From: Escherichia coli
GTDB lineage: Bacteria; Pseudomonadota; Gammaproteobacteria; Enterobacterales; Enterobacteriaceae
Length of the DNA: 64,000 nt
Assembly: GCF_029227855.1 (NCBI RefSeq)
Contig: NZ_CP074356.1
Reading direction: 5' to 3' (one strand)
The notes under the pieces were generated by a model. The model was given only the letters and a program-made list of their open reading frames with translations. It was not told the DNA's origin and did no database searches. The first letter of the stretch is position 1. Each line of letters starts with the position of its first letter. Of this stretch, positions 500 through 12,699 are shown in pieces. The position numbers and the translations under genes are program-made.

Positions 500-775
500 A
501 TGTCGATGTACACAACCGCCCAGCTGCTGGCGGCAAATGAGCAGAAATTTAAGTTTGATCCGCTGTTTCTGCGTCTCTTTTTCCGTGAGAGCTATCCCTT
601 CACCACGGAGAAAGTCTATCTCTCACAAATTCCGGGGCTGGTAAACATGGCGCTGTACGTTTCGCCGATTGTTTCCGGTGAGGTTATCCGCTCCCGTGGC
701 GGCTCCACCTCTGAATTTACGCCGGGATATGTCAAGCCGAAGCACTTAGCATGGCTTTCTGAGGCTTTCGTGTAG
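500..775 (+). pseudogene. E: major capsid protein E, 5' fragment (first ~82 codons), interrupted at 735-744 by an inserted element
   Basis: From ATG 500 the product MSMYTTAQLLAANEQKF...GYVKPKH is lambda gpE N-terminus; after the core at 735-744 the frame continues into unrelated sequence and stops at 775. Confidence 0.92.
735..744. repeat. attL core / target-site direct repeat (AGCCGAAGCA)
   Basis: Identical 10-mer recurs at 11864-11873; prophage E sequence resumes exactly after the right copy. Confidence 0.85.
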
Positions 776-872
776 CTGCTGGTTTTTACACTTAATCTTT
801 TGATAATAAAGAATAAGTTTATCTGGCGCTTTCACTGAATTTTCCTCGTTATCTGTGTGTTGCAATCATCTC

Positions 873-892
873 TGTATTGCAGCTTGTATTGC
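873..892 (+). promoter_or_regulatory. tandem TGTATTGC motifs (TGTATTGCAGCTTGTATTGC), putative integrase arm-type binding sites overlapping the int 5' region
   Basis: Near-identical 20-mer (TGTATTGCAGCATGTATTGC) recurs at 11769-11788 just inside the other att core. Confidence 0.5.
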
Positions 893-907
893 TTTTTGGG
901 GCTAAAA

Positions 908-2143
908 ATGGCTGGCGAGAACAAACTGAGCGACAAAGCGCTTAAAGGATATCTGGGGAAACCCAGAGAAAAGCAGATCACCATTGCTGATGGAAAGGGG
1001 CTTTCTATTCGTGTGAGTACTAAAGGGGCTGTGAGCTTTGTTTTCTTCTACAGGTTAGCAGGTGGCCGGGCTGCTCCGGTCTGGCTAACGTTGGGTAAAT
1101 ATCCTGATATGTCACTCAAACAGGCAAGGGAAAAGCGCGACGAGTGCCGTGGTTGGTTGGCTGACAAACGTGATCCGCGTATCCAGATTAAGATTCAGGC
1201 TGAAGAACGCTTAAAGCCGGTCACAGTGGAGGATGCACTAAATTACTGGTATGAAAATTACTGTAAGGTGCGTCGTAAAACTCATGCTGTAACGCTTGGC
1301 AGATTTCGAAAGCATATCTTTCCCTATATCGGTCATTTGCCCGTAAATGACACTCACCTATATGAATAGCTGGACTGTTTTGACCGAATTAAACGTAATG
1401 CACCAGTTATGGCGGCGTATGTTTTTTCTGACACTAAATTAGCTCTTCGTTTTTGTCGGGTACGCCAGTACGCGACGTGTGATGCTTTAAAGGATTTGCG
1501 CATGAGTGATGTGGGGCAGATTGCAGGTAAGCGGGATCGGGTTCTGGATGAGGTCGAACTCGGCCAGCTCTGGAAGGCAATTTTTGTCGAGCCTGATTTA
1601 AAACTAATGTCTGAATACACGCGAAAAATGTTTGTGCTTTGTACAGTATTTGGATGTCGAATGAGTGAAGCCCGATTATCAGAATGGAGCGAATGGGATC
1701 TCGAAAGTTGGGTTTGGACTGTGCCAAAAGATCACTCAAAAACTGGTGTTGAAATCGTCAGACCAGTACCTGAAATTCTACGACAGTGGGTAACGGATGT
1801 TCACGAAGAGACAAAACATACTGGTTATGTGCTGGGAAGTCTGCGAATTAGAGAAAGCGTAAGCAAGATTGGGGGGAAAATCGGTAAACGTTTGGGCCAT
1901 GAAAAACAATGGTCACTACACGACCTTAGAAGAACGCTATCTACTCATCTAAGTGATCTCGGTGTTGAATTTTATGTAGTAGAACAACTGTTAGGCCATG
2001 CGCTACCTGGCGTGGCAGGTGTTTACAACCGGAGTAAGTTTATGGCTAAAAAACTGGATGCTCTGGAACTCTGGACTACATATCTCAATAGCATCGCAGC
2101 TGCTGATTCAAAAGTGACAATCCTCAAACAAAAGGCTGGTTAG
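908..2143 (+). pseudogene. int: P4-type tyrosine integrase interrupted by an in-frame amber codon (TAG at 1367-1369)
   Basis: ORFs 857-1369 and 1409-2143 are in the same frame, separated by one TAG; N-terminal arm-binding region (MAGENKLSDKALKGYLGK...) and C-terminal catalytic region with HDLRRT, LLGHA and VYNRS (Tyr) motifs. Confidence 0.85.
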
Positions 2144-2144
2144 C

Positions 2145-2375
2145 ATGAAAAAAATGGCAATTGTTGATAAAAAGGGTCTGGAGTACATTCCTAACATTGA
2201 CCGAATGATCCGTGAGAAAGAATGTCGGGAGCTAACTACTCTTGCGAACAGCACACGCTGGAAGCTGGAGAAGGAAGGAAAATTTCCTAAGCGGATCAAG
2301 ATTGGTTCCACTGCTGTTGCATATCGTCTTTCAGAAGTGCAGGCATGGATTCGAGGTGAGTGGGAAACAACTTAA
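2145..2375 (+). CDS. alpA: AlpA-family HTH transcriptional regulator / excisionase-like protein
   Basis: 76-aa product with AlpA-type HTH (RIKIGSTAVAYRLSEVQAWI); immediately downstream of int as in P4-like and PICI elements. Confidence 0.8.
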   Translation: MKKMAIVDKKGLEYIPNIDRMIREKECRELTTLANSTRWKLEKEGKFPKRIKIGSTAVAYRLSEVQAWIRGEWETT

Positions 2376-2382
2376 CTATTAG

Positions 2383-3213
2383 GTGGGCATTGTGGCTATA
2401 TTTCATTATACAGATCTTTTTGGTTTGAAAGGTATATTAGACTCTAATTCTTTATGGGCTACAAACATATATTTCTTAAATGATAAAGAGGAGTCTAACC
2501 ATGGATGTGAATGCTTTCGAAATACAATTAAAATAGTTGATGACAATATCATTCCAAAAGATAAGAAAACTATTTTGCTCAAGTCTCTTGACATGTATGA
2601 GAAAGGGAGGTTACAAAAAGAAAAAGGGATTGATAAACATGTTTATAGCATCTCTTTTTGTAAGGAAAACGATAAGTTAAGTCAGTGGAGAGGTTACGGA
2701 AATAAACAGGGTGTTTGCATTGAGTTTGATGCGGATGAACTTGTGAGCTTTTCTCAAAATATTTATTTAAATTGTGTTGCACATGATGTTATATATTCAA
2801 ATAATAACGATATTACTAAGATGAGTAAGGAGTTGGGAGAGTTTTTTTCTTGTAATGGTATTAATATTAAAGAAATGAATGATCATTTTGTAACAATGGT
2901 CTCTACGTATCAATTTATATCTAAATACATCCCATTTTTTAAACATCCTAGTTTTATCGAAGAGAATGAATTTAGATTGGTATTTACTCCGTGGATGCAA
3001 ATGCCAGATGTGCACTTCAGAATAAATAATAATGGGATCATCCCTTATATCATCATTGATAATAAAGATAATAGAAAGTTACCAATTAAAAGCATTACAA
3101 TTGGCCCGACAAACGATTATGATTTCATTGAGGCTGGTATAAAAATGTTCTTGGATTCAAGAGGATTTAGTTCTGTGGAAATTAAATCCTCATCAATTCC
3201 ATTCAGGGGGTAA
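2383..3213 (+). CDS. uncharacterised 276-aa protein, AT-rich accessory gene (candidate defence/abortive-infection cargo)
   Basis: Long ORF with GTG start at 2383 (alternative GTG at 2392 has AGGTGG 5 nt upstream); visibly AT-rich relative to int and primase; no confident family match by eye. Confidence 0.6.
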   Translation: MGIVAIFHYTDLFGLKGILDSNSLWATNIYFLNDKEESNHGCECFRNTIKIVDDNIIPKDKKTILLKSLDMYEKGRLQKEKGIDKHVYSISFCKENDKLSQWRGYGNKQGVCIEFDADELVSFSQNIYLNCVAHDVIYSNNNDITKMSKELGEFFSCNGINIKEMNDHFVTMVSTYQFISKYIPFFKHPSFIEENEFRLVFTPWMQMPDVHFRINNNGIIPYIIIDNKDNRKLPIKSITIGPTNDYDFIEAGIKMFLDSRGFSSVEIKSSSIPFRG

Positions 3214-3344
3214 GGATTAACACTTTTAATCTATGATATTATAAAAATGGTGGATAAAGGCGACCAGAATTGGTCGCCAATGTGAGTATATAGTTAGCCT
3301 TAATCAGAATACGAGGTTATCGCCTGATAGGCAATGTGAACAGT

Positions 3345-3701
3345 TCAATATTTAGGTGGTTCAACAAGAGCGTTTATCATTGCTCTCAAATTATCGCGAA
3401 CACTTATCCAAGTCTGTTCTGCTCGTTCTAACTCATCAGTGTACAACTTTAATGTTTTATCTATGCCATATGTGGCTATTAAATTTATAGCTTCTTGTAA
3501 TTTTTCAGGATTATTCCTTCTTGGGGGAGTGAATATACCACGGATTTTTCCGGTAATTAAAGCTTTACGGTGTCTACATAGAATACCTTTACTTCCTGCT
3601 GGACAATTACAAGTCATGATTAGCGAGCCAGAATCGTTTGATACAGTGACTATGTATACATCCAAACTACTGCTACTTGTTGCGAAGAATTCGTATTTCA
3701 T
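3345..3701 (-). CDS. SWIM-type zinc-finger protein (118 aa)
   Basis: CxC...CxH motif (CNCPAGSKGILCRH); AAGGAG Shine-Dalgarno about 8 nt upstream of the ATG; downstream of the Arc-like gene on the same strand. Confidence 0.6.
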   Translation of the reverse strand: MKYEFFATSSSSLDVYIVTVSNDSGSLIMTCNCPAGSKGILCRHRKALITGKIRGIFTPPRRNNPEKLQEAINLIATYGIDKTLKLYTDELERAEQTWISVRDNLRAMINALVEPPKY

Positions 3702-3728
3702 GTGTTAGCTCCTTGACTTCAATTATTC

Positions 3729-3920
3729 TTATCCTTTTGGTTCAATACCGCGCCGTAGCAGCTCTTTGCGCCCTAATTCTTTAAGCCAGTTGGCTAGGCT
3801 TATGCCGTCGCTCTGCGCTTCTTTGTCGAATTGCTCTTTTAGCTCTGGAGAAATTCGCATTCTGAATTGTGGAGATTGCCCATCACCCTTAGGACTTTTA
3901 TCGCGTTTGATCGTTGACAA
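3729..3920 (-). CDS. Arc/MetJ-type ribbon-helix-helix DNA-binding protein (candidate satellite repressor)
   Basis: C-terminal part ...PQFRMRISPELKEQFDKEAQSDGISLANWLKELGRKEL resembles Arc repressor; start uncertain (TTG at 3920 with AGGTGG upstream, or ATG further in; ORF track gives 3729-4043); divergent from the + strand operon that starts at 4060. Confidence 0.55.
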   Translation of the reverse strand: MSTIKRDKSPKGDGQSPQFRMRISPELKEQFDKEAQSDGISLANWLKELGRKELLRRGIEPKG

Positions 3921-4059
3921 GTGACCACCTATTGAATTAGCCTTTTCATTGTTAGGTGACCACCTTAACACGGGGGCACTTAAAAAAGCAAAGCCCGAAG
4001 GTGCTGGGAACACCAACGGGCTTCTAACCACCAACGATAGCAACAGTATCGAGGTAGCT

Positions 4060-4263
4060 ATGAGAAATCATACCACACACCCGCAAGGGCGGGACCCGCA
4101 CAACCTGAATAAATACATCTGGCGTTTTATCGCCTTGAGTACGGCACAACCGCGCATGATTACCATCGAGGCCATCAGCGAACAGGAAGCCCGCCAGCAA
4201 TCCCCAACTGGCTGCGTGATGGTATTCGCCGCCCGTATTCGTCAGGAGGTGTGCCGTGCTTAA
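4060..4263 (+). CDS. hypothetical small protein (first gene of operon leading to primase)
   Basis: ATG 4060 preceded by GAGG; in frame with ORF 3949-4263. Confidence 0.45.
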   Translation: MRNHTTHPQGRDPHNLNKYIWRFIALSTAQPRMITIEAISEQEARQQSPTGCVMVFAARIRQEVCRA

Positions 4264-4441
4264 AACCTTCCGTGTATTTGCCCGAGCTGTTAACCCACTG
4301 GGCCACACAATTGGTATCACTCAGAACGTGAAGGCTGTTAATGTTCAGACGGCTATTGCTGCGGTGAGAAGCGAATCATCAGAATATGGCTTATCACAAG
4401 TCATTATTTCAGCAGTGTATGAATTAAAAGAGGTGCATTAA
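4256..4441 (+). CDS. hypothetical small protein (61 aa)
   Basis: ORF whose start overlaps the upstream stop (translational coupling). Confidence 0.4.
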   Translation: MLKTFRVFARAVNPLGHTIGITQNVKAVNVQTAIAAVRSESSEYGLSQVIISAVYELKEVH

Positions 4442-4632
4442 TGCAGGAAATCACATTACACGAAGCCGCTGAACGTGCGCACCAGACAGAAATTATTTGC
4501 CGCCTTCTTGAGGTATACCCGAACAAAATTACAGATGCTGATATATCCGCGCTGGCGAGCCTACTGGCGCGCCTTTCGGGAAGTGTCGCTAGTTTCCTGA
4601 TTGAGGAAGAAAGTAAGCTGGTGGGGGATTAA
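4441..4632 (+). CDS. hypothetical small protein (63 aa)
   Basis: ATG overlaps upstream stop (TAATG); co-directional operon. Confidence 0.45.
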   Translation: MQEITLHEAAERAHQTEIICRLLEVYPNKITDADISALASLLARLSGSVASFLIEEESKLVGD

Positions 4633-4854
4633 ATGAATACAGAACGGGAAGTCTTTTTTAAATTGTTAGCATGTGCAGAAAGTTCATTAACTTTAAATAA
4701 TTCAGCAAAAGCAATATTAAATATGTGGCTTGATTGCATAAATGACAATGAAGATGCAAATATTGCTTATGGCCTGTTGTCACTTATTGATGAATCAGCA
4801 GAAAAACTCAATGACGCAATAAATAGTGCCCTGCTATCAAATAAGTCGAGTTAA
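4633..4854 (+). CDS. hypothetical small protein (73 aa), AT-rich
   Basis: ORF directly abutting the upstream stop. Confidence 0.4.
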   Translation: MNTEREVFFKLLACAESSLTLNNSAKAILNMWLDCINDNEDANIAYGLLSLIDESAEKLNDAINSALLSNKSS

Positions 4855-4871
4855 GTCGAGGAATAAATAAT

Positions 4872-5171
4872 ATGGAAATGAAAAATTCTGGCTTTATTGC
4901 CAGCGGCCCCGCTCGGCCTGAATTTATGAACGGCGATATTTACCGCGATAAATACGGCGGCACGGTAACGATTAAAGGCGTGGCAGAACGGCGCATCACT
5001 TACCGCCGTGAGGGGTATAGCTATGACTGCGTGATGCCTGTTTATCAGTTCCGGCGTGATTTTTCCCTGGTATATGCCGCACCCCGCAGTAAGCCCATCA
5101 GCAGGGAAAAAGCGCGGGGAAACATCCAGAAAATGAAAAGCATGATTAACGCATTCAGGGGCAAAAAATGA
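4872..5171 (+). CDS. hypothetical protein (99 aa)
   Basis: ORF whose stop overlaps the primase start. Confidence 0.45.
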   Translation: MEMKNSGFIASGPARPEFMNGDIYRDKYGGTVTIKGVAERRITYRREGYSYDCVMPVYQFRRDFSLVYAAPRSKPISREKARGNIQKMKSMINAFRGKK

Positions 5172-6919
5172 AACTGGCACCGAACTTAAAAAAACAGCCA
5201 CGCGACAGACTGACAGAGGTAATCATCTTTGCAGGTAGTGATGCGTGGAGCCATGCGAAAGAGTGGCGGGAATGGGCGGGTAAACATATTGCCGCCGACG
5301 ATGTGCCGCCTGTCGTGCTGGCTGATGAGCAACTGAAAAATATCACCGATTACCGGATCATTGATGAAGATCGTCAGTGTGTGCGTGTTTACCGCGCAGG
5401 ACATATCACAGAGCACAGCATGACGCAGATTGTTACGTTACTGGCTGTGGCTGGAGTGAAGACCGTACACGAATACGCGGGGATTACTGACACCAGCCCA
5501 GTGGATTTATCCGAGCAGTTGCCGCGACTCAAAGAGGAATGCGAGCGTGGGGAAAGTCTGGTGCTTAATCTTCCGACGAAGCAAAAGGCGCAACTTTCAC
5601 AGATGGCAGACAGTGAACGTGCACAACTACTTGCCGATCGCTTTGATGGTGTGTGTGTTCATGCAGAAAGTGAAATCGTCCACGTATGGCGCGGCGGGGT
5701 ATGGTGTCCGGTCAGCACAATGGAGCTGAGCCGCGAAATGGTGGCGATCTATTCAGAGCACAGGGCCACGTTCAGCAAACGTGTAATCAATAACGCCGTG
5801 GAAGCGTTAAAAGTTATTGCCGACCCCATGGGGGAGCCGTCCGGTGATTTGCTACCGTTCACTAATGGTGTGCTTAACCTGAAAACGGGGGAATTTTCTC
5901 CGCACTCGCCGGAGCACTGGAGCACCACGCACAATGGCATTGAGTACACGCCACCAGTAGCAGGGGAAAACATCCGCGATAATGCGCCAAATTTCCATAA
6001 ATGGCTTGAACATGCTGCAAGAAAAGACCCGCGCAAGATGATGCGTATATGTGCCGCGTTATACATGATTATGGCGAACCGCTACGACTGGCAGATGTTC
6101 ATTGAGGCCACCGGAGACGGGGGAAGCGGTAAGAGTACATTTACCCATATTGCCACCCTGCTTGCTGGCAAACAGAACACCGTAAGCGCGGAGATGACAT
6201 CACTCGATGATGCAGGAGGGCGCGCGCAGGTTGTCGGGAGTCGTCTTATCGTCCTTGCCGATCAGCCGAAATATACGGGGGAAGGCACGGGCATCAAGAA
6301 AATCACGGGAGGCGATCCCGTTGAAATTAACCCGAAATATGAGAAGCGATTCACGACGATAATAAGGGCGGTGGTACTGGCAACCAATAACGACCCGATG
6401 ATCTTTACCGAACGGGCCGGAGGTGTGTCACGCCGTCGGGTGATTTTCCGGTTCGACAACATTGTAAGGGAGGACGAAAAAGACAAGGAATTACCGGAAA
6501 AGATAGCGGCAGAAATCCCCGTAATTATCCGCCGCTTGCTGGCTAATTTTGCTGACCCTGAAAAGGCACGGGCTTTATTACTGGAACAGCGTGACGGTGA
6601 TGAAGCTCTGGCAATAAAGCAGCAAACGGATCCGGTTGTTGAGCTTTGCGCGGCGCTGGAGTTTCTGGAGGAAGCTCGTGGGCTAATGATGGGCGGTGGT
6701 GGTGACACCGTGAAGTACACGACCAGAAACAGCCTTTACCGTGTCTATATGGCCTTCATGGCATACACAGGAAAGGGGAAATGTTTGAGCGTGAATGAGT
6801 TCGGAAAGGCTATGAGGTCAGCGGCGAAAGTTTACGGATATGAATATATTACGCGAAAAGTTAAGGGAGTCACGCAGACCAACGCAACGACTACTGATGA
6901 TTGCGATGCGTTTTTATAA
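5168..6919 (+). CDS. P4-alpha-type replication primase/helicase (phage/plasmid primase, P4 family C-terminal domain)
   Basis: 583-aa product with Walker A GDGGSGKST and surrounding blocks typical of P4-family primase C-terminal domains; followed by iterons. Confidence 0.85.
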   Translation: MKLAPNLKKQPRDRLTEVIIFAGSDAWSHAKEWREWAGKHIAADDVPPVVLADEQLKNITDYRIIDEDRQCVRVYRAGHITEHSMTQIVTLLAVAGVKTVHEYAGITDTSPVDLSEQLPRLKEECERGESLVLNLPTKQKAQLSQMADSERAQLLADRFDGVCVHAESEIVHVWRGGVWCPVSTMELSREMVAIYSEHRATFSKRVINNAVEALKVIADPMGEPSGDLLPFTNGVLNLKTGEFSPHSPEHWSTTHNGIEYTPPVAGENIRDNAPNFHKWLEHAARKDPRKMMRICAALYMIMANRYDWQMFIEATGDGGSGKSTFTHIATLLAGKQNTVSAEMTSLDDAGGRAQVVGSRLIVLADQPKYTGEGTGIKKITGGDPVEINPKYEKRFTTIIRAVVLATNNDPMIFTERAGGVSRRRVIFRFDNIVREDEKDKELPEKIAAEIPVIIRRLLANFADPEKARALLLEQRDGDEALAIKQQTDPVVELCAALEFLEEARGLMMGGGGDTVKYTTRNSLYRVYMAFMAYTGKGKCLSVNEFGKAMRSAAKVYGYEYITRKVKGVTQTNATTTDDCDAFL

Positions 6920-6933
6920 AAAATGGCAATGGT

Positions 6934-7161
6934 TATCTACCTTGTCTACCTGACTGAAAGAAAATACTTTTATTTCAATGTATTAATGCAGGTAGATAAC
7001 TATTTTTCACTGTCTACCTGTTATCTACCTTATCTACCCATTTTTGTAGACAGGTAAGGAGACGGGTAGAGATGAGGTAGACAGCTATTTGGGGCTGTCT
7101 ACCTCCCTGAAACCCGCGCCATTACTGGCCTGATAACTAATCAGGTAGACAAGGTAGACAA
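6934..7161. repeat. replication-origin iterons (about 12 copies of T[GT]TCTACC / GGTAGA[CT]A in both orientations)
   Basis: Dense cluster of the 8-9-bp motif in the non-coding stretch immediately downstream of the primase gene. Confidence 0.75.
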
Positions 7162-7208
7162 GGTGGTGGTGCACAAAAAACTTTTTAAACGAGGGGGTAA
7201 AAATAAAA

Positions 7209-7466
7209 ATGCACACTTCAGGAAAACTGAACAAACATATAAAGCCACATTACCGCGCCCTTGATATGGCTGAACACTGGCTAAGGGTGGCGATTAAGGC
7301 AATAGACCGCAACGCCGGGGAAGGATACGCGAAAGCACATCCCGAACTGATAAGCGCATTCATGACAACGGCGGCTGCAAACTTTGCCACGCTGACCGAA
7401 CGGGAGATTGCTGAAGCGGAGGAAGTGACAACAATCAATATTAAGTCCGGAGAGCAGGCAGCATGA
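7209..7466 (+). CDS. hypothetical protein (85 aa)
   Basis: ORF whose stop overlaps the ssb start (ATGA). Confidence 0.45.
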   Translation: MHTSGKLNKHIKPHYRALDMAEHWLRVAIKAIDRNAGEGYAKAHPELISAFMTTAAANFATLTEREIAEAEEVTTINIKSGEQAA

Positions 7467-7912
7467 CGGCGCAAATATCAGTTTACGGGCGGTTGGTGGA
7501 CGACCCGCAGACAAAACAGACCAGCAAGGGCACCCCCATGACGCTGGCGCGTATGGCGGTATCACTGCCCTGCAGTCAGTCGGATGACGGTCTGGCGACG
7601 TTGTGGTTATCTGTCCTGGCGTTTGGCAGACAAGCCGACGCGCTGGCAAAGCATCACAAAGGCGAACTCCTGAGCGTGGCGGGTAACATGCAGATGAGCC
7701 AGTGGACTGGACAGAACGGCGAAACGCGGCAGGGCTGGCAGGTTATCGCAGACAGCGTAATCAGTGCGCGATCGGTGCGACCGGGCGGCAAAAAAGGCCA
7801 ACAGGGGCAGGCTACTGACGCACTGAACAGAGCAAAACAACAGGCAGATCAGCAAGGAAGCCAGCCACCAGAGGGAGATAATGAGCAATGGGGAGATGAT
7901 ATCCCGTTTTAA
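7463..7912 (+). CDS. ssb: single-stranded DNA-binding protein (SSB)
   Basis: 149-aa product with OB-fold-like N-terminal region and acidic C-terminal tail ending DDIPF. Confidence 0.75.
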   Translation: MTAQISVYGRLVDDPQTKQTSKGTPMTLARMAVSLPCSQSDDGLATLWLSVLAFGRQADALAKHHKGELLSVAGNMQMSQWTGQNGETRQGWQVIADSVISARSVRPGGKKGQQGQATDALNRAKQQADQQGSQPPEGDNEQWGDDIPF

Positions 7913-8128
7913 ATATTGCCAATAAAAAAAGCCGGAAAAAATAAATTTTCCGGCATGCTACATAAATCCCGACCAAAGGGAGTGAAGATATTAACACTAA
8001 TTGTCCGCACTGAAGTTGTCACACCAAAACTTTATACAACATTGCACTCGGTTGCATGTGTTCGCATGACAAATATCGGTGATAGCATATATCCACAATT
8101 ATTTTTAATGAATGCAAAGAGGATGCGT

Positions 8129-9169
8129 ATGGTTGATTTATATTCGCCTACTCAGCTTGTACAGGTAGTTAATGCTGTAGATGTACAAAAACAACTAAAT
8201 GCGTTGTTTACCAGTTTGTTTTTTACTCGCTCGGTAATGTTTGAATCGCGCGATATTATTCTTGATACAATCGACGATCCAAATATCCCAATTGCAGCGT
8301 TTTGTTCTCCTATGGTGGGTAGTAAAGTTTCACGTGACGAAGGGTACGAATCAAAAACAATTCGTCCAGGCTATATGAAGCCGAAAAGCAGCATTGATCC
8401 AAATAAGTTAGCTGTGCGCCCTGCTGGTGTGTCACCTGAGCAATACAATGCTTTTGGGGCGCGTAATATTAAAGTTAAACAGGCGATTGTAAATCAGGCT
8501 AAAGCTATTCGTGCACGTATTGAATGGCTTGCTGTTCAGGCAATCACAACGGGGAAAAATATCATTGAGGGCGATGGTATTGAACGTTATGAGCTGGACT
8601 GGAATATAAAACCACAAAATATCATCACTCAGTCTGGCGGTACTGAGTGGTCAGGTAAGGATAAAGAAACTTTTGATCCAAATGATGATATTGAGAGCTA
8701 CGCAGAATTTAGTGAGGGCGTCACTAATATCATCATTATGGGTGGTAATGTATGGAAGAAATACCGTTCATTCAGAGCGATAAAAGAGGCTTTGGATACC
8801 CGTCGTGGTTCTAATTCCGAACTGGAAACGGCCCTTAAAGACCTTGGTGATTCGGTGAGTTTTAAAGGGTATATGGGCGATGTTGCGATTGTTGTTTACA
8901 GCGGGCGTTATACCGACGAGGACGGAACAGAAAAACATTTCCTTGATCCTGATTTGATGGTGCTTGGCAATACGGCTCTTCAGGGGATTGTCGCCTATGG
9001 CGGTATTCAGGATCCGGAGCTAATCCGAATGGGGCTGACTAAAGCCGAACTTGCACCGAAAAACTATATTGTGCCTGGTGATCCGGCTATTGAATATGTG
9101 CAGACACATTCAGCACCACAGCCAATACCGGCCCGCATCAATCGTTTTGTTACCGTTCGCATTGGCTAA
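8129..9169 (+). CDS. major capsid protein paralogue (lambda gpE-like) encoded by the satellite
   Basis: ORF 7916-9169; from ATG 8129 (GAGG upstream) the product aligns collinearly with the prophage's own E, sharing blocks ITQSGGTEWS, DTRRGS.SELETA.KDLG and GDVAIVVYSG. Confidence 0.85.
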   Translation: MVDLYSPTQLVQVVNAVDVQKQLNALFTSLFFTRSVMFESRDIILDTIDDPNIPIAAFCSPMVGSKVSRDEGYESKTIRPGYMKPKSSIDPNKLAVRPAGVSPEQYNAFGARNIKVKQAIVNQAKAIRARIEWLAVQAITTGKNIIEGDGIERYELDWNIKPQNIITQSGGTEWSGKDKETFDPNDDIESYAEFSEGVTNIIIMGGNVWKKYRSFRAIKEALDTRRGSNSELETALKDLGDSVSFKGYMGDVAIVVYSGRYTDEDGTEKHFLDPDLMVLGNTALQGIVAYGGIQDPELIRMGLTKAELAPKNYIVPGDPAIEYVQTHSAPQPIPARINRFVTVRIG

Positions 9170-9178
9170 GGGGGAGCA

Positions 9179-9520
9179 ATGGCTACTCATTACACTGAAC
9201 TCATGGCTGGCACTGAAGCACTGGTGACTACGCTGGGGATATTTTCAGCTAATAAAGGGGTAATTCCTGCATTTACGCCACTGATGCAGGAAGATGCAAC
9301 AGGTGCACTGGTGGTATGGGATGGTTCGAGCGTAGGTAAAGCGGTTTATGTTTCCGCTGTACAAATCGACACCGCGAAAAAAACACAGGCTCAGGTCTAT
9401 AAGACAGGTGTCTTAAATGTTGATGCTCTGAACTGGCCTGAGTCTGTTAAAGAACTGTCAGTAAAGGTTGCAGCGTTTGTTGGCTCAGGTATTTCTGTTC
9501 AGCCGCTGGCTCGTGTGTAA
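9179..9520 (+). CDS. head decoration protein paralogue (lambda gpD-like) encoded by the satellite
   Basis: 113-aa product alignable with prophage D at 112-444 (LVVWDGSSVGKAV versus [13 protein letters not shown]; shared C-terminal G.AISV region). Confidence 0.75.
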   Translation: MATHYTELMAGTEALVTTLGIFSANKGVIPAFTPLMQEDATGALVVWDGSSVGKAVYVSAVQIDTAKKTQAQVYKTGVLNVDALNWPESVKELSVKVAAFVGSGISVQPLARV

Positions 9521-9531
9521 AGGGGGATACA

Positions 9532-9915
9532 ATGCAGAATGATTACAATGACCTTAAGCCAATTGCCGAAATGATGTACCCGAATCAAGCTGTAGAGGAA
9601 TTAAAAGCTATCGCTGACAAAATGTGTTTAAGCGAGCGCCTTGTTGATATGAATCAGGTGATGGAAATTACAACCCTGAGTCGTCGTACACTGCTAAACC
9701 TTGAGGCTAGTGGAGAGTTCCCGGAGCGTGTGCAGGTTACGGAAGGGCGTAAGGCCTGGTATTTAAGTGAAGTGATCGACTGGATAAATAATATTCCTCG
9801 CGCTTCTGAATATTGCCGCGTACCTGTCCCAAAAAAGCCAGATGCGGCGCTATGCCTCAAGATTGAGCGTGTACGCCGCAATGCACGGGATGGTCGCTAT
9901 AAGCTGATTGGTTGA
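9532..9915 (+). CDS. AlpA-family HTH protein adjacent to cos (candidate packaging-redirection or regulatory protein)
   Basis: 127-aa product with AlpA-type HTH (ITTLSRRTLLNLEASGEFPERVQV) and a basic C-terminal extension; immediately upstream of the cos site. Confidence 0.55.
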   Translation: MQNDYNDLKPIAEMMYPNQAVEELKAIADKMCLSERLVDMNQVMEITTLSRRTLLNLEASGEFPERVQVTEGRKAWYLSEVIDWINNIPRASEYCRVPVPKKPDAALCLKIERVRRNARDGRYKLIG

Positions 9916-9923
9916 TGAAATTA

Positions 9924-9950
9924 GGACCCGCTCTGGCTGGCGGGTCCTTT
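9924..9950 (+). terminator. hairpin terminator-like element after gene 9532-9915
   Basis: GGACCCG...CGGGTCC stem followed by TTT. Confidence 0.4.
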
Positions 9951-10145
9951 CCGGCGATCCAGAACGTTACGGGGCGTCAGGCGCGCAGTTTTTCGCTATT
10001 TGTGAAAATTTTCCTGTTTAAGGCGTTTCCGTTCTTCTTCGCCGTAACTTAATGTTTTTATTAAAAACACCCCCTAAAAAGAAAGGAAACGACAGGTGCT
10101 AAAAACAGGCTTTTTGGCCTCTGTCGTTTCCTTTCTCTGGTTTTG
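9940..10145. other. lambda-type cos site (cosN-equivalent at about 9972-9983; cosB R3-I1-R2-R1 to about 10140)
   Basis: Stretch TTTTCGCTATTTGTGAAAATTTTCCTGTTTAAGGCGTTTCCGTTCTTCTTCG...AAAGAAAGGAAACGACAGGTGCT...GGCTTTTTGGCCTCTGTCGTTTCCTTTCTCTG closely matches the left end of phage lambda (cosB) from memory; cosN 12-mer reads GGGCGTCAGGCG instead of GGGCGGCGACCT; no Nu1 gene follows. Confidence 0.8.
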
Positions 10146-10513
10146 TTGCCATCCGTCGCGGTCTATCACCAGAAAAAATCTTATCCCTGAGTTGAATCAG
10201 GCCCTATTCAGAAGCGGCCAATAACGCGCCGCTAGCTTCACTTCATAGTTATGGCCTACTTCTGCGCCATTGCAATTGCTTTATGCGCCTTGATGGTGGA
10301 ATATAGAGCAAGCAGTTTGCGAATAACAAAGTTTCATATGTTTTTTGCTGTGTGGCTAGACAACTTTACAGCAGAGTTTTGTGTCAGTTCTTTATGTGTG
10401 CAAGCAAGCTTGAGGGGGAATTACTTCTGGCTGTATCTTTGCTTAAGAACAGCAATAATTTAATCATAAGGAAATGTATATAAGCCTGATTAAATTTCAG
10501 GCTTATTGAAATG

Positions 10514-11656
10514 TTAACTCCTTATTAGAGAGTAAATTCCATCCTCTTTAAGGAAGTCTATTACTTCAAAGAATGAGATAAAGAATTCCCAAGAACCAAA
10601 AGCATATGCATGAATTTCGTAAGGTGCAAAATGGAATCTAAATCCATCACTATTTATTGTGAACGAGTCTAAGTTACTATCCATGATACCCGTTGCAAAC
10701 GTACTAATGTCGTCCTCACTTGGTTTTTCACCAGTTTTCTCCCAAAATTCACGAGCTGATTCAGAGATTATTTTTTGTTTTATCTTATTAATCGCTTCTT
10801 GCTCTTTCCCTTCGGTAAATACATCCCATAAACTAAATTTGTATGCGTAGTCATCCTTGGTTATTACGAAATTACTAGTTTCAAAATGACTGTTAGGGTG
10901 TGCTGCTCCCGCACCATACCAATGTACGGAATGAAGGATGCTCATGACATTTTCGTTACAGTATGAGATGTTATAACTTTCATTATAGGAACTAGTGTAA
11001 GTGTGTTTATATTCTTCATCCCAATATGGTGTTCCTGGCCATAGTGATGTGCGTTCAGAAAAAATATGTAAAGCCGCTTTTCCTGAAAAGTAATCACTAA
11101 TGAGTTTTGCTGATTTCGGTAATGTATGGCTTTCAATTCTTGGATATGCTATTTCAATTTCATGCCCTGGGATCTTGTTATATTCTTCCTTGAAAACCTC
11201 GCTGCTAAAGTTAAATGGCCCATAAGTGATACCTTGAGATATTTCAAGTTTTTGTTGCGATGCTGCTAATCTTAAAGATCTAGATAAAATGTCCCAACCA
11301 TCATTTCTCTTAAAATCAATGAATTGGAGCTTGCTTGATATGTAGGCGGGTACTTCGCAATCATCAATAAGTAATGGTATCACGAACACATCATCTGGTT
11401 TGTAATACTTTAGTTTATCAATGGCGTCATTTATTTCGCGGCGAATATAACCATTTTTCTGAGTGCTCACTTTGCTAAGGATAAGGATTATCAAGTTTGA
11501 ATTAGCGAAGTTTTTTTGGATTTCATAATCCCAGTTTACGCCAGCGGGTATATCTTTTACATCCATCCAAGGGGAATATCCTCCACTTTTTAGCCTTTCA
11601 TAGATTTCTTCAGTTATCGTTTCATCTTCTTTTGCATGAGCAAGAAAAATTTTCAT
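10514..11656 (-). CDS. TIR-domain protein with C-terminal domain of unknown function (candidate anti-phage defence gene)
   Basis: 380-aa product; N-terminal about 135 aa looks like a TIR domain (MKIFLAHAKEDE...ILILSKVS...REINDAIDKL); C-terminal about 240 aa unassigned (contains HWYGAGAAHP motif); AT-rich; last gene before attR. Confidence 0.7.
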   Translation of the reverse strand: MKIFLAHAKEDETITEEIYERLKSGGYSPWMDVKDIPAGVNWDYEIQKNFANSNLIILILSKVSTQKNGYIRREINDAIDKLKYYKPDDVFVIPLLIDDCEVPAYISSKLQFIDFKRNDGWDILSRSLRLAASQQKLEISQGITYGPFNFSSEVFKEEYNKIPGHEIEIAYPRIESHTLPKSAKLISDYFSGKAALHIFSERTSLWPGTPYWDEEYKHTYTSSYNESYNISYCNENVMSILHSVHWYGAGAAHPNSHFETSNFVITKDDYAYKFSLWDVFTEGKEQEAINKIKQKIISESAREFWEKTGEKPSEDDISTFATGIMDSNLDSFTINSDGFRFHFAPYEIHAYAFGSWEFFISFFEVIDFLKEDGIYSLIRS

Positions 11657-11768
11657 TGAATATTCCTTTATAATTTAACTAATTAAGTGAAGGAGGCTTT
11701 ACTTGGCTGTGTTAGAAAAAATTCGGTTTGTTTTTTGTACGATGCCAAGAAGGCTTTTCCCTAACCAT

Positions 11769-11788
11769 GTATTGCAGCATGTATTGCT
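11769..11788 (+). promoter_or_regulatory. tandem TGTATTGC motifs (putative integrase arm-type sites, right arm)
   Basis: TGTATTGCAGCATGTATTGC, 19/20 identical to 873-892. Confidence 0.5.
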
Positions 11789-11863
11789 ACGTAATTCTGC
11801 ACCCTCTCATTTATAAAATAAATCTCTGTTAAATCAAGTATCTTTTTTCTATTTGACTCATGT

Positions 11864-11873
11864 AGCCGAAGCA
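11864..11873. repeat. attR core / target-site direct repeat (AGCCGAAGCA)
   Basis: Identical to 735-744; E sequence (HEVNPQMTL...) resumes from this point. Confidence 0.85.
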
Positions 11874-12699
11874 TGAGGTGAATCCGCAGATGACCCTGCG
11901 TCGCCTGCCGGATGAAGATCCGCAGAATCTGGCGGACCCGGCTTACCGCCGCCGTCGCATCATTATGCAGAACATGCGTGACGAAGAGCTGGCCATTGCC
12001 CAGGTCGAAGAGATGCAGGCAGTTTCTGCCGTGCTTAAGGGCAAATACACCATGACCGGTGAAGCCTTCGATCCGGTTGAGGTGGATATGGGCCGCAGTG
12101 AGGCGAATAACATCACGCAGTCCGGCGGCACGGAGTGGAGCAAGCGTGACAAGTCCACGTATGACCCGACCGACGATATCGAAGCCTACGCGCTGAACGC
12201 CAGCGGAGTGGTGAATATCATCGTGTTTGATCCGAAAGGCTGGGCGCTGTTCCGTTCCTTCAAAGCCGTCAAGGAGAAGCTGGATACTCGTCGCGGCTCT
12301 CATTCCGAGCTGGAGACAGCGGTGAAAGACCTGGGCAAAGCGGTGTCCTACAAGGGGATGTATGGCGATGTGGCCATCGTCGTGTATTCCGGACAGTACG
12401 TGGAAAACGGCGTCAAAAAGAACTTCCTGCCGGACAACACGATGGTGCTGGGGAACACTCAGGCACGCGGTCTGCGCACCTATGGCTGCATTCAGGATGC
12501 GGACGCACAGCGCGAAGGCATTAACTCCTCTGCCCGTTACCCGAAAAACTGGGTGACCACCGGCGATCCGGCGCGTGAGTTCACCATGATTCAGTCAGCA
12601 CCGCTGATGCTGCTGGCTGACCCTGATGAGTTCGTGTCCGTACAACTGGCGCAATCGTGGCCCTTCGGGGCCATTTTCTCTCTGTGGAGGAGTCCATGA
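11864..12699 (+). pseudogene. E: major capsid protein E, 3' fragment (about 260 codons), with the lambda stop position read as CAA
   Basis: Product ...EVNPQMTLRRLPDEDPQ...DEFVSVQLA is lambda gpE from about residue 83; 500-744 plus 11874-12654 equals 1026 nt, the lambda E length; frame runs on 15 codons to TGA at 12697-12699. Confidence 0.9.

What the first reader, a model, noticed from the sequence alone, without database searches (positions are those of the whole stretch)
6934..7161. Iteron-type origin immediately downstream of the primase
About twelve copies of an 8-9-bp motif (T[GT]TCTACC and its complement) in both orientations fill the non-coding 230 bp after the primase gene, resembling the P4 ori/crr arrangement bound by alpha protein. 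This supports autonomous replication of the excised element.
Basis: partly seen in the sequence, partly recalled or inferred. Interest (0 to 1): 0.4.

Follow-up and report, generated by a model that had tools for sequence, protein, structure and literature searches.

The report
Iteron replication origin of phage satellite
The repeat cluster is real and is the replication origin of a small phage-parasitic island sitting inside a lambda-like prophage; the same kind of origin was described and tested in a close relative (EcCICFT073), so the finding is correct but ordinary.

Summary
Eleven exact copies of TNTCTACC (N = G, A or C) and one 1-mismatch copy fill 6934-7160. Only six occur in the other 63.8 kb. 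The stretch is non-coding and starts 15 bp after the stop of ORF 5168-6919.

The ORF is 41% identical to phage P4 alpha over its helicase and origin-binding domains. Its C-terminus matches the solved P4 origin-binding domain (1KA8).

The element (att cores at 735-744 and 11864-11873) is a helper-embedded PICI of the published '11capE' type, inserted in the capsid gene of a lambdoid prophage. Its repeat region is about 75% identical, with iterons at the same positions, to the region after pri of EcCICFT073. Published work showed that pri-ori segment drives plasmid maintenance.

Across 50 distinct variants the TCTACC cores are 94% conserved against 74.5% for the spacers. Ten of eleven cores sit at mirror-symmetric positions.

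Caveats:
- The protein lacks P4's primase domain.
- The element has one iteron cluster, not P4's bipartite ori plus crr.
- This copy's integrase carries a premature stop.
- Replication was not tested here.

Novelty: already known. Interest is low.

The parts
5168..6919 (+). pri/rep gene (583 aa). It has a Toprim-like N-terminal module (aa 1-136), then D5_N, an SF3 helicase (DUF5906) and a C-terminal winged-helix origin-binding domain (aa 487-578, nt 6626-6901).
   Evidence: Pfam D5_N 1.3e-15, DUF5906 6e-10, Pox_D5 6e-4. TIGR01613 9e-30. 41% identity to P4 alpha 321-762. PDB 1KA8 E = 2e-7 and SaPI5 Rep 7OLA E = 5e-15. N-terminal fold.
6934..6950 (+). Left outer iteron pair, TATCTACC and TGTCTACC, starts 9 bp apart.
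   Evidence: It is the mirror partner of 7144-7160, a 21-nt inverted repeat 95% complementary (I2).
6952..6990 (.). AT-rich spacer (23% GC), the candidate DNA-unwinding element.
   Evidence: Composition. Nearest-neighbour stability falls in the least stable 4.6% of 40-bp windows of the element. Matches the 'AT rich region flanked by iterons' of Gram-negative PICI origins (PMC6092414).
6991..6998 (-). Single inverted iteron (GGTAGATA).
   Evidence: Mirror partner of 7096-7103.
7011..7038 (+). Three direct iterons (TGTCTACC, TATCTACC, TATCTACC), starts 11 and 9 bp apart.
7045..7052 (-). Degenerate twelfth copy (TGTCTACA).
   Evidence: It is absent at this position in EcCICFT073.
7065..7083 (-). 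Two inverted iterons (GGTAGAGA, GGTAGACA). They are mirror partners of 7022-7029 and 7011-7018.
7096..7103 (+). Single direct iteron. With 7076-7083 it forms a perfect 12-bp palindrome with an 8-nt spacer.
   Evidence: (I10).
7107..7129 (.). Nearly invariant GC-rich block CTGAAACCCGCGCCATTACTGGC inside the array. Function unknown.
   Evidence: Column conservation of 90-100% across 50 ori variants.
7144..7160 (-). Right outer iteron pair (GGTAGACA, GGTAGACA), starts 9 bp apart.
7175..7208 (+). Block invariant through 7200, then 70-90% conserved to 7208: A6-C-T5 tract, then AAACGAGGGGGTAAAAATAAAA (ribosome-binding site of the next gene).
   Evidence: Invariant through 7200 in all 50 variants; the remaining columns are 70-90% conserved. 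P4 crr units end in A8CT6 or A8T6 at the equivalent place.
7209..7912 (+). Downstream replication-module genes: an 85-aa protein (PHROG 1231, function unknown) and SSB (7463-7912).
   Evidence: The same order is found in EcCICFT073 and other relatives.
735..744 (+). attL core AGCCGAAGCA, at the junction with the N-terminal fragment of the prophage major capsid gene.
   Evidence: Matches the 10-bp identity block reported for 11capE (PMC10111431).
11864..11873 (+). attR core AGCCGAAGCA. The capsid gene resumes after it.
908..2143 (+). Integrase of the element, interrupted by a stop codon at 1367-1369 (W154*).
   Evidence: comparison with the intact copy in L001. The allele is absent from 5,426 complete E. 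coli genomes.
9940..10145 (+). cos-like packaging site of the element. This is what excludes a packaging role for the iteron array.
   Evidence: 89% identity to the helper cos region upstream of nohA in L001.

Best explanation
The array is the vegetative replication origin of an ~11.1-kb phage-inducible chromosomal island. The island is a helper-embedded PICI of the 11capE type, integrated in the major capsid gene of a lambdoid prophage.

Proposed mechanism, with the status of each step:
1. The protein encoded immediately upstream is a P4-alpha-type SF3 helicase with a C-terminal winged-helix origin-binding domain (shown by homology).
2. That domain binds the 8-bp iterons T(G/A/C)TCTACC (inferred from homology to the P4 alpha origin-binding domain and its TGTTCACC repeats).
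3. The iterons form a mirror-symmetric array, ++ - +++ / -- + -- (shown). This would position two helicase assemblies head to head (inferred, by analogy with other SF3-helicase origins).
4. The 39-bp AT-rich spacer at 6952-6990 melts, the helicase self-loads, and replication proceeds with the element's SSB and host priming and polymerase functions (inferred).

That such a pri-ori module is a functional replicon was shown experimentally only for the homologous EcCICFT073 module, not for this sequence.
For: - Clustering: 11 exact and 1 near copies in 228 bp, P about 1e-28.
- Position: directly 3' of the helicase/origin-binding-domain gene, in non-coding DNA.
- Protein homology: origin-binding domain to 1KA8 (E = 2e-7) and helicase to SaPI5 Rep 7OLA; 41% identity to P4 alpha 321-762.
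- Parallel with P4: crr lies right after alpha and uses TGTTCACC octamers, some in tandem 9 bp apart.
- Homology to a tested origin: the region is 75% identical to the region after pri of EcCICFT073 (L002 8995-9282), with iterons at matching positions. That pri-ori supports plasmid maintenance, and deleting pri or ori abolishes or reduces it. Delta-pri-rep lowers island transfer about 100-fold (PMC6092414).
- Conservation: in 50 distinct ori variants from 83 loci, TCTACC columns are 94% conserved against 74.5% for the spacers (Mann-Whitney p = 7e-16).
- Symmetry: 10 of 11 cores are exactly mirror-symmetric. None of 200,000 random placements reached 10.
- Covariation: the base preceding the octamer's variable N position (T versus C) switches in concert across the array and tracks two origin-binding-domain residues (N..G versus A..S) in 66 of 67 distinct protein/ori combinations, across three N-terminal backgrounds.
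- Context: element identity and att sites (PMC10111431).
Against: - No experiment exists on this sequence.
- In the published 11capE element, the attP:attB ratio stayed near 1 in two of three induction experiments. This indicates little or no autonomous replication after excision (PMC10111431).
- The AT-rich spacer is not the least stable DNA in the element.
- The protein lacks a recognisable primase domain, so the source of priming is unknown.
- The covariation of origin-binding domain and iterons could partly reflect physical linkage, because the two lie within about 400 bp of each other. One recombinant exception exists.
Confidence: 0.9

Rival explanations
1. The array is a crr-like, cis-acting accessory or copy-control site, for example one that handcuffs or sequesters the initiator. 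Actual initiation would occur elsewhere, as in P4, where the array after alpha is crr and replication starts at ori 4.5 kb away.
For: The homologous array in P4 at the same position relative to alpha is annotated as crr, not ori. Post-excision replication of 11capE is weak.
Against: The element has no second cluster of the motif: no TCTACC between 745 and 11873 outside 6936-7158. In EcCICFT073, pri plus the adjacent region alone was enough for plasmid maintenance.
Confidence: 0.05
2. The repeats are operators of a promoter that drives the downstream genes (85-aa ORF, SSB, capsid, decoration). A regulator, either Pri itself or AlpA, would bind them to control transcription rather than replication.
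For: The array sits just upstream of a co-oriented gene set. The last 34 bp before the ATG are invariant through 7200 and 70-90% conserved to 7208. Initiator autoregulation at iterons is common in plasmids (established knowledge).
Against: No sigma-70-like promoter or terminator was found in 6700-7400. Twelve sites spread over 228 bp with an AT-rich gap fit an origin better than an operator. The ori deletion in the homologue affects replication. A dual role is not excluded.
Confidence: 0.04
3. The array is the packaging (cos or pac) site recognised by the helper terminase.
For: The element has no terminase genes and must carry a packaging signal somewhere.
Against: A cos-like region 89% identical to the helper's cos lies at 9940-10145, about 3 kb away. 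The iteron region has no similarity to it.
Confidence: 0.01

Closest known systems
Replication origin of Gram-negative PICIs, model EcCICFT073 (Fillol-Salom et al. 2018, ISME J, PMC6092414)
   Same: It lies immediately 3' of pri/rep. [quoted passage not shown] It is about 75% identical in nucleotide sequence, with iterons at the same positions and the same TCTACC core. The Pri proteins are about 80% identical overall, and the core (residues ~150-583, including the origin-binding domain) is nearly identical. The downstream genes are the same (85-aa ORF, SSB, capsid, decoration).
   Different: The spacers have diverged. The window has an extra degenerate copy at 7045-7052. The island is embedded in a prophage capsid gene rather than in the chromosome. 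The N-terminal 136 aa of Pri are a different allele. The window sequence itself has not been tested.
Phage P4 crr / ori with alpha protein (NC_001609; origin-binding domain structure 1KA8)
   Same: The helicase and origin-binding domain are homologous (41% identity). The array lies directly after the gene. The octamers have the same format in both orientations (TGTTCACC versus TGTCTACC) with tandem copies 9 bp apart. An A-tract/T-tract follows the last inverted pair.
   Different: P4 has two separate clusters (ori and crr, 4.5 kb apart) and a duplicated 120-bp crr unit. Here there is one dyad-symmetric cluster. The central dinucleotide of the octamer differs. P4 alpha carries a ~320-aa primase region that this protein lacks.
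SaPI ori with Rep (Ubeda et al. 2007 PNAS; SaPI5 Rep structure 7OLA)
   Same: The origin lies immediately 3' of the rep gene. Two iteron sets flank an AT-rich region. Rep is a self-loading SF3-type helicase, and its helicase region matches at E = 5e-15.
   Different: The iteron sequences and Rep C-terminal specificity domains are unrelated. The host is Gram-positive. No nucleotide homology exists.
Origins of SF3-helicase viruses (SV40 large T antigen, papillomavirus E1). This is a functional resemblance only.
   Same: Short origin-binding-domain sites are arranged as inverted sets next to an AT-rich tract, a layout that supports head-to-head double-hexamer assembly (established knowledge). Here 10 of 11 sites are mirror-symmetric.
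   Different: The origin-binding-domain fold is unrelated and there is no sequence homology. Double-hexamer formation is not shown for P4 alpha-type proteins in this work.

Membership tests
Gram-negative PICI replication origin | Located immediately 3' of the pri/rep gene, in non-coding DNA | tested here: met
   It starts 15 bp after the stop at 6919. No ORF longer than 49 aa overlaps it.
Gram-negative PICI replication origin | [quoted passage not shown] | tested here: met
   The pair at 6934-6950 and the iterons from 6991 onwards flank the 23%-GC spacer at 6952-6990.
Gram-negative PICI replication origin | Resides in a PICI: int, alpA, pri co-oriented, about 10-20 kb, flanked by att repeats | tested here: met
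   int 908-2143, AlpA 2145-2375, pri 5168-6919, 10-bp att cores 11.1 kb apart.
Gram-negative PICI replication origin | Sequence homology to an experimentally validated PICI ori (EcCICFT073) | tested here: met
   75% identity over 98% of the 289-bp query, with iterons in register.
Gram-negative PICI replication origin | Supports pri-dependent autonomous replication | not testable with these tools
   Shown only for the EcCICFT073 homologue (PMC6092414).
Phage P4 ori/crr system | Initiator with an alpha-type helicase and a C-terminal origin-binding domain | tested here: met
   41% identity to alpha 321-762. 1KA8 E = 2e-7.
Phage P4 ori/crr system | Type-1 octamer TGTTCACC | tested here: not met
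   The octamer here is TGTCTACC. It has the same length and the same outer bases, but the central TC is CT.
Phage P4 ori/crr system | Bipartite layout: ori and crr clusters kilobases apart, with crr as two 120-bp direct repeats | tested here: not met
   There is a single cluster in the element and no 120-bp duplication.
Phage P4 ori/crr system | Initiator carries the N-terminal alpha primase domain | tested here: not met
   [not shown]
Plasmid-type iteron origin (Rep winged-helix initiator plus DnaA boxes, 17-22-bp direct iterons) | Long direct iterons and DnaA boxes | tested here: not met
   The repeats are 8 bp and in both orientations. Only one 1-mismatch DnaA-like box (7003-7011) was found, with no enrichment.

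The most novel reading that the evidence does not exclude
The Gram-negative PICI origin may be a single-copy, dyad-symmetric descendant of the P4 crr. The evidence is a shared origin-binding domain, a near-identical octamer, the same 9-bp tandem spacing and the same terminal A/T tract. Within E. coli PICIs, two origin-binding-domain residues (N..G versus A..S in L[NS]V[NA][DE]F[GS]KAM), together with the base preceding the octamer's variable N position in every iteron (T versus C), would define orthogonal replication-specificity classes. Such classes would let co-resident satellites replicate without cross-talk.
Probability: 0.3. Interest if true: 0.35.

Novelty: already known. Interest (0 to 1): 0.15.

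Why it matters
It confirms that the embedded island carries its own replicon. That replicon is part of what lets such satellites amplify after the helper prophage is induced. Both the origin type and the element type are already published, so the main value is correct annotation. Three details could be useful to people working on PICI or P4 replication, but they are incremental: the exact mirror symmetry of the sites, the link to P4 crr, and the concerted switch of iterons and origin-binding domain.

Tried and rejected
- Rfam scan of the whole element (700-11900) at E <= 0.1 gave no hits, so a structured-RNA reading has no support.
- The sigma-70 promoter and intrinsic terminator scan of 6700-7400 found none.
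- DnaA boxes are not enriched; one 1-mismatch site was found.
- The cos/pac reading is rejected because a cos-like site lies at 9940-10145.
- The CTGAAA hexamer shared with P4 crr was considered as evidence of homology. I set it aside because shared 6-mers between two 300-bp sequences are expected by chance. The A6CT5 tract is more specific, but it is low-complexity.
- A homologue search with the N-terminal 136 aa returned mostly gene fragments. It showed fusion to other helicase types but no annotated function.
- A search for the integrase nonsense allele in complete E. coli genomes found nothing.
- The text of the 2018 paper does not give the iteron sequences; they appear only in a figure. 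The published iterons could therefore not be compared letter by letter.

Full report
**Observation.** The sequence between 6920 and 7208 is the gap between ORF 5168-6919 and the ATG at 7209. TNTCTACC occurs 17 times in the 64-kb window. Eleven of these lie at 6934-7160, six on the + strand and five on the - strand. Shuffling predicts about 3.9 per 64 kb, so about 0.014 in 228 bp; the Poisson probability of 11 or more is 9e-29. A twelfth copy with one mismatch (TGTCTACA) lies at 7045-7052. The invariant core is TCTACC. No ORF longer than 49 aa overlaps the region.

**Context.** The upstream ORF has D5_N, DUF5906 and a weak Pox_D5 C-terminal match, and it approaches the NCBIfam 'P4-family primase C-terminal' model. 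Downstream lie an 85-aa ORF, SSB, a lambda-E-type major capsid protein, a lambda-D-type decoration protein and an AlpA-like protein.

In E. coli strain 10 (L001) the same ~11-kb block is annotated between two fragments of a prophage major capsid gene. In the window, the 10-bp core AGCCGAAGCA occurs at 735-744 and 11864-11873, and the lambda gpE reading frame is split exactly there. The block contains an integrase, AlpA, DUF2971, SWIM, an Icd-like protein, small ORFs, DUF4222, the primase, then the genes listed above.

This is the 'helper-embedded PICI' 11capE described by Barcia-Cruz et al. 2023 (PMC10111431). [quoted passage not shown]

**Homology to a tested origin.** A sensitive search with 6920-7208 hits 566 of 5,426 complete E. 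coli genomes, always on the chromosome and always in unannotated DNA. One hit (75% identity, 98% coverage) is in CFT073. It lies directly after the P4-family primase gene of an island with int, AlpA, Icd-like, DUF4222, pri, SSB, PerC, capsid and decoration genes. This is EcCICFT073, whose capsid (c1499) and decoration (c1500) genes are named in Fillol-Salom et al. 2018.

[quoted passage not shown] It shows that an EcCICFT073 pri-ori plasmid is maintained at the restrictive temperature, whereas the delta-pri and delta-ori derivatives are not or much less so. Delta-pri-rep lowers island transfer about 100-fold. Mapping the motif in CFT073 and five other relatives shows iterons at the same positions as in the window.

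**Comparative test.** I collected 83 loci encoding relatives of the protein and extracted the DNA from the stop codon to the conserved ribosome-binding block. There are 50 distinct sequences of 286-291 bp, each with 9-11 TCTACC hexamers. In their alignment the hexamer columns are 94% conserved, against 74.5% for the other columns inside the array (Mann-Whitney p = 7e-16). The repeats are therefore the selected part of the region.

Two further blocks are highly conserved. One is CTGAAAsCCGCGCCATTACTGGC (7107-7129), nearly invariant. The other is A6CT5AAACGAGGGGGTAAAAATAAAA (7175-7208), invariant through 7200 and 70-90% conserved in its last columns. Their roles are not known. The second includes the ribosome-binding site of the next gene.

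**Architecture.** Starts and orientations are 6934+, 6943+, 6991-, 7011+, 7022+, 7031+, (7045-), 7065-, 7076-, 7096+, 7144-, 7153-. Ten of the eleven exact cores map onto one another by reflection about about 7047. The same holds exactly in 21 of the 50 variants, and approximately in the rest. None of 200,000 random placements of 11 sites reached 10 mirrored sites.

The 39 bp between the left outer pair and the next iteron are 23% GC and fall among the least stable 4.6% of 40-bp windows in the element. The mirror-image gap on the right is instead the conserved GC-rich block. The single strand folds far better than shuffles (z = -7.4), as expected for such inverted repeats.

**The protein.** Residues 137-578 align with P4 alpha residues 321-762 at 41% identity (E = 1e-116). 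This region covers the SF3 helicase and the origin-binding domain. The last 92 residues match the solved P4 origin-binding domain 1KA8 (E = 2e-7), and the helicase matches the SaPI5 Rep structure 7OLA (E = 5e-15).

**Relation to P4.** In NC_001609, crr is annotated directly downstream of alpha. It contains ten 8-bp 'type 1' repeats in both orientations, some in tandem 9 bp apart. A second cluster forms ori 4.5 kb away. The repeat is TGTTCACC, with variants TATTCACC and TCTTCACC. This is the same format as TGTCTACC / TATCTACC / TCTCTACC here, with the central dinucleotide changed.

Each crr unit ends with A8CT6 or A8T6 a few bases after the last inverted pair, as the window's array ends with A6CT5. 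The element differs in having one cluster only and no 120-bp duplication.

**Covariation.** Among the relatives there are two iteron classes. One is T-N-TCTACC (the window, CFT073). The other is C-N-TCTACC (for example O157:H7 and O178 islands). The class tracks two residues of the origin-binding domain, N..G versus A..S in L[NS]V[NA][DE]F[GS]KAM:
- 41 of 41 distinct protein/ori combinations with N..G have T-type iterons.
- 25 of 26 with A..S have C-type iterons.
- The pattern holds across three different N-terminal alleles.

The single exception looks like a recombinant with a breakpoint inside the domain. The concerted change of the same position in most of the approximately ten iterons argues that a single protein reads all the copies. 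The association with the protein is weaker evidence, because the gene end and the array are physically adjacent.

**Rivals.**
- Packaging site: excluded. A cos-like region 89% identical to the helper's cos lies at 9940-10145.
- Promoter/operator: has no support from consensus scans, but it cannot be excluded as a second function.
- crr-like accessory site with initiation elsewhere: unlikely, because there is no second cluster and the EcCICFT073 pri-ori fragment suffices.
- DnaA boxes: not enriched.
- Rfam: no family matches.

**Caveats for this copy.** The integrase has a TGG to TGA change giving W154* relative to the otherwise near-identical copy in L001. The allele is not found in any complete E. 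coli genome searched. If the change is real, this copy cannot excise by itself, so 'replication of the excised element' is doubtful here.

In the published 11capE, the attP:attB ratio stayed near 1 in two of three experiments and reached 1.6-1.9 in the third. Strong autonomous replication has therefore not been shown for this element type.

**Verdict.** The repeat cluster is real, and its reading as an iteron origin served by the adjacent P4-alpha-like protein is supported. It belongs to the already described Gram-negative PICI origin class, whose EcCICFT073 member was tested. Novelty is 'already known' and interest is low. The modest new points are the exact dyad symmetry, the detailed parallel with P4 crr, and the two matched classes of iteron and origin-binding domain.

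Noticed in passing
window 908-2143 (stop codon at 1367-1369): The island's integrase carries a premature stop (W154*, TGG to TGA) relative to the intact copy in E. coli strain 10. A 55-mer centred on the mutant base has no match in 5,426 complete E. coli genomes, so the change is private to this source or is a sequencing error.
   Followed up: partly
window 9940-10145 (cosN-like 12-mer at about 9972-9983): The island's cos-like site matches the helper cos (cosB part nearly identical). Its 12-nt cosN is GGGCGTCAGGCG instead of lambda's GGGCGGCGACCT. The same variant is in the L001 copy. EcCICFT073 (L002) has the canonical cosN twice, at 12551 (+) and 13313 (-). Whether helper terminase can cut the variant is unknown.
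   Followed up: partly
[not shown]
   Followed up: partly
window 10514-11656, minus strand: This cargo gene encodes a 380-aa protein with TIR_2 and DUF3298 domains (Pfam 2.8e-21; PADLOC hits to TIR-containing defence proteins). It is a probable anti-phage defence cargo and differs from the cargo at the same place in the L001 copy.
   Followed up: partly
window 7107-7129 and 7175-7208: Two blocks inside or next to the array are as conserved as the iterons or more so across 50 variants. They are CTGAAAsCCGCGCCATTACTGGC (nearly invariant) and A6CT5AAACGAGGGGGTAAAAATAAAA (invariant through 7200). The first has no obvious function. The second includes the next gene's ribosome-binding site and resembles the A/T tract that ends each P4 crr unit.
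   Followed up: partly
L006, L007 and about 25 other loci (O157:H7, O178 islands), region after pri: A second iteron class, C-N-TCTACC instead of T-N-TCTACC, co-occurs with A..S instead of N..G in the origin-binding domain (66 of 67 distinct combinations fit). L058 is a mismatched recombinant.
   Followed up: yes
window 2383-3213 (+) and 3345-3701 (-): DUF2971 and SWIM-zinc-finger genes lie between alpA and the Icd-like gene. They have only weak PADLOC hits (PDC-S31, PDC-S62), and their function is unknown.
   Followed up: no
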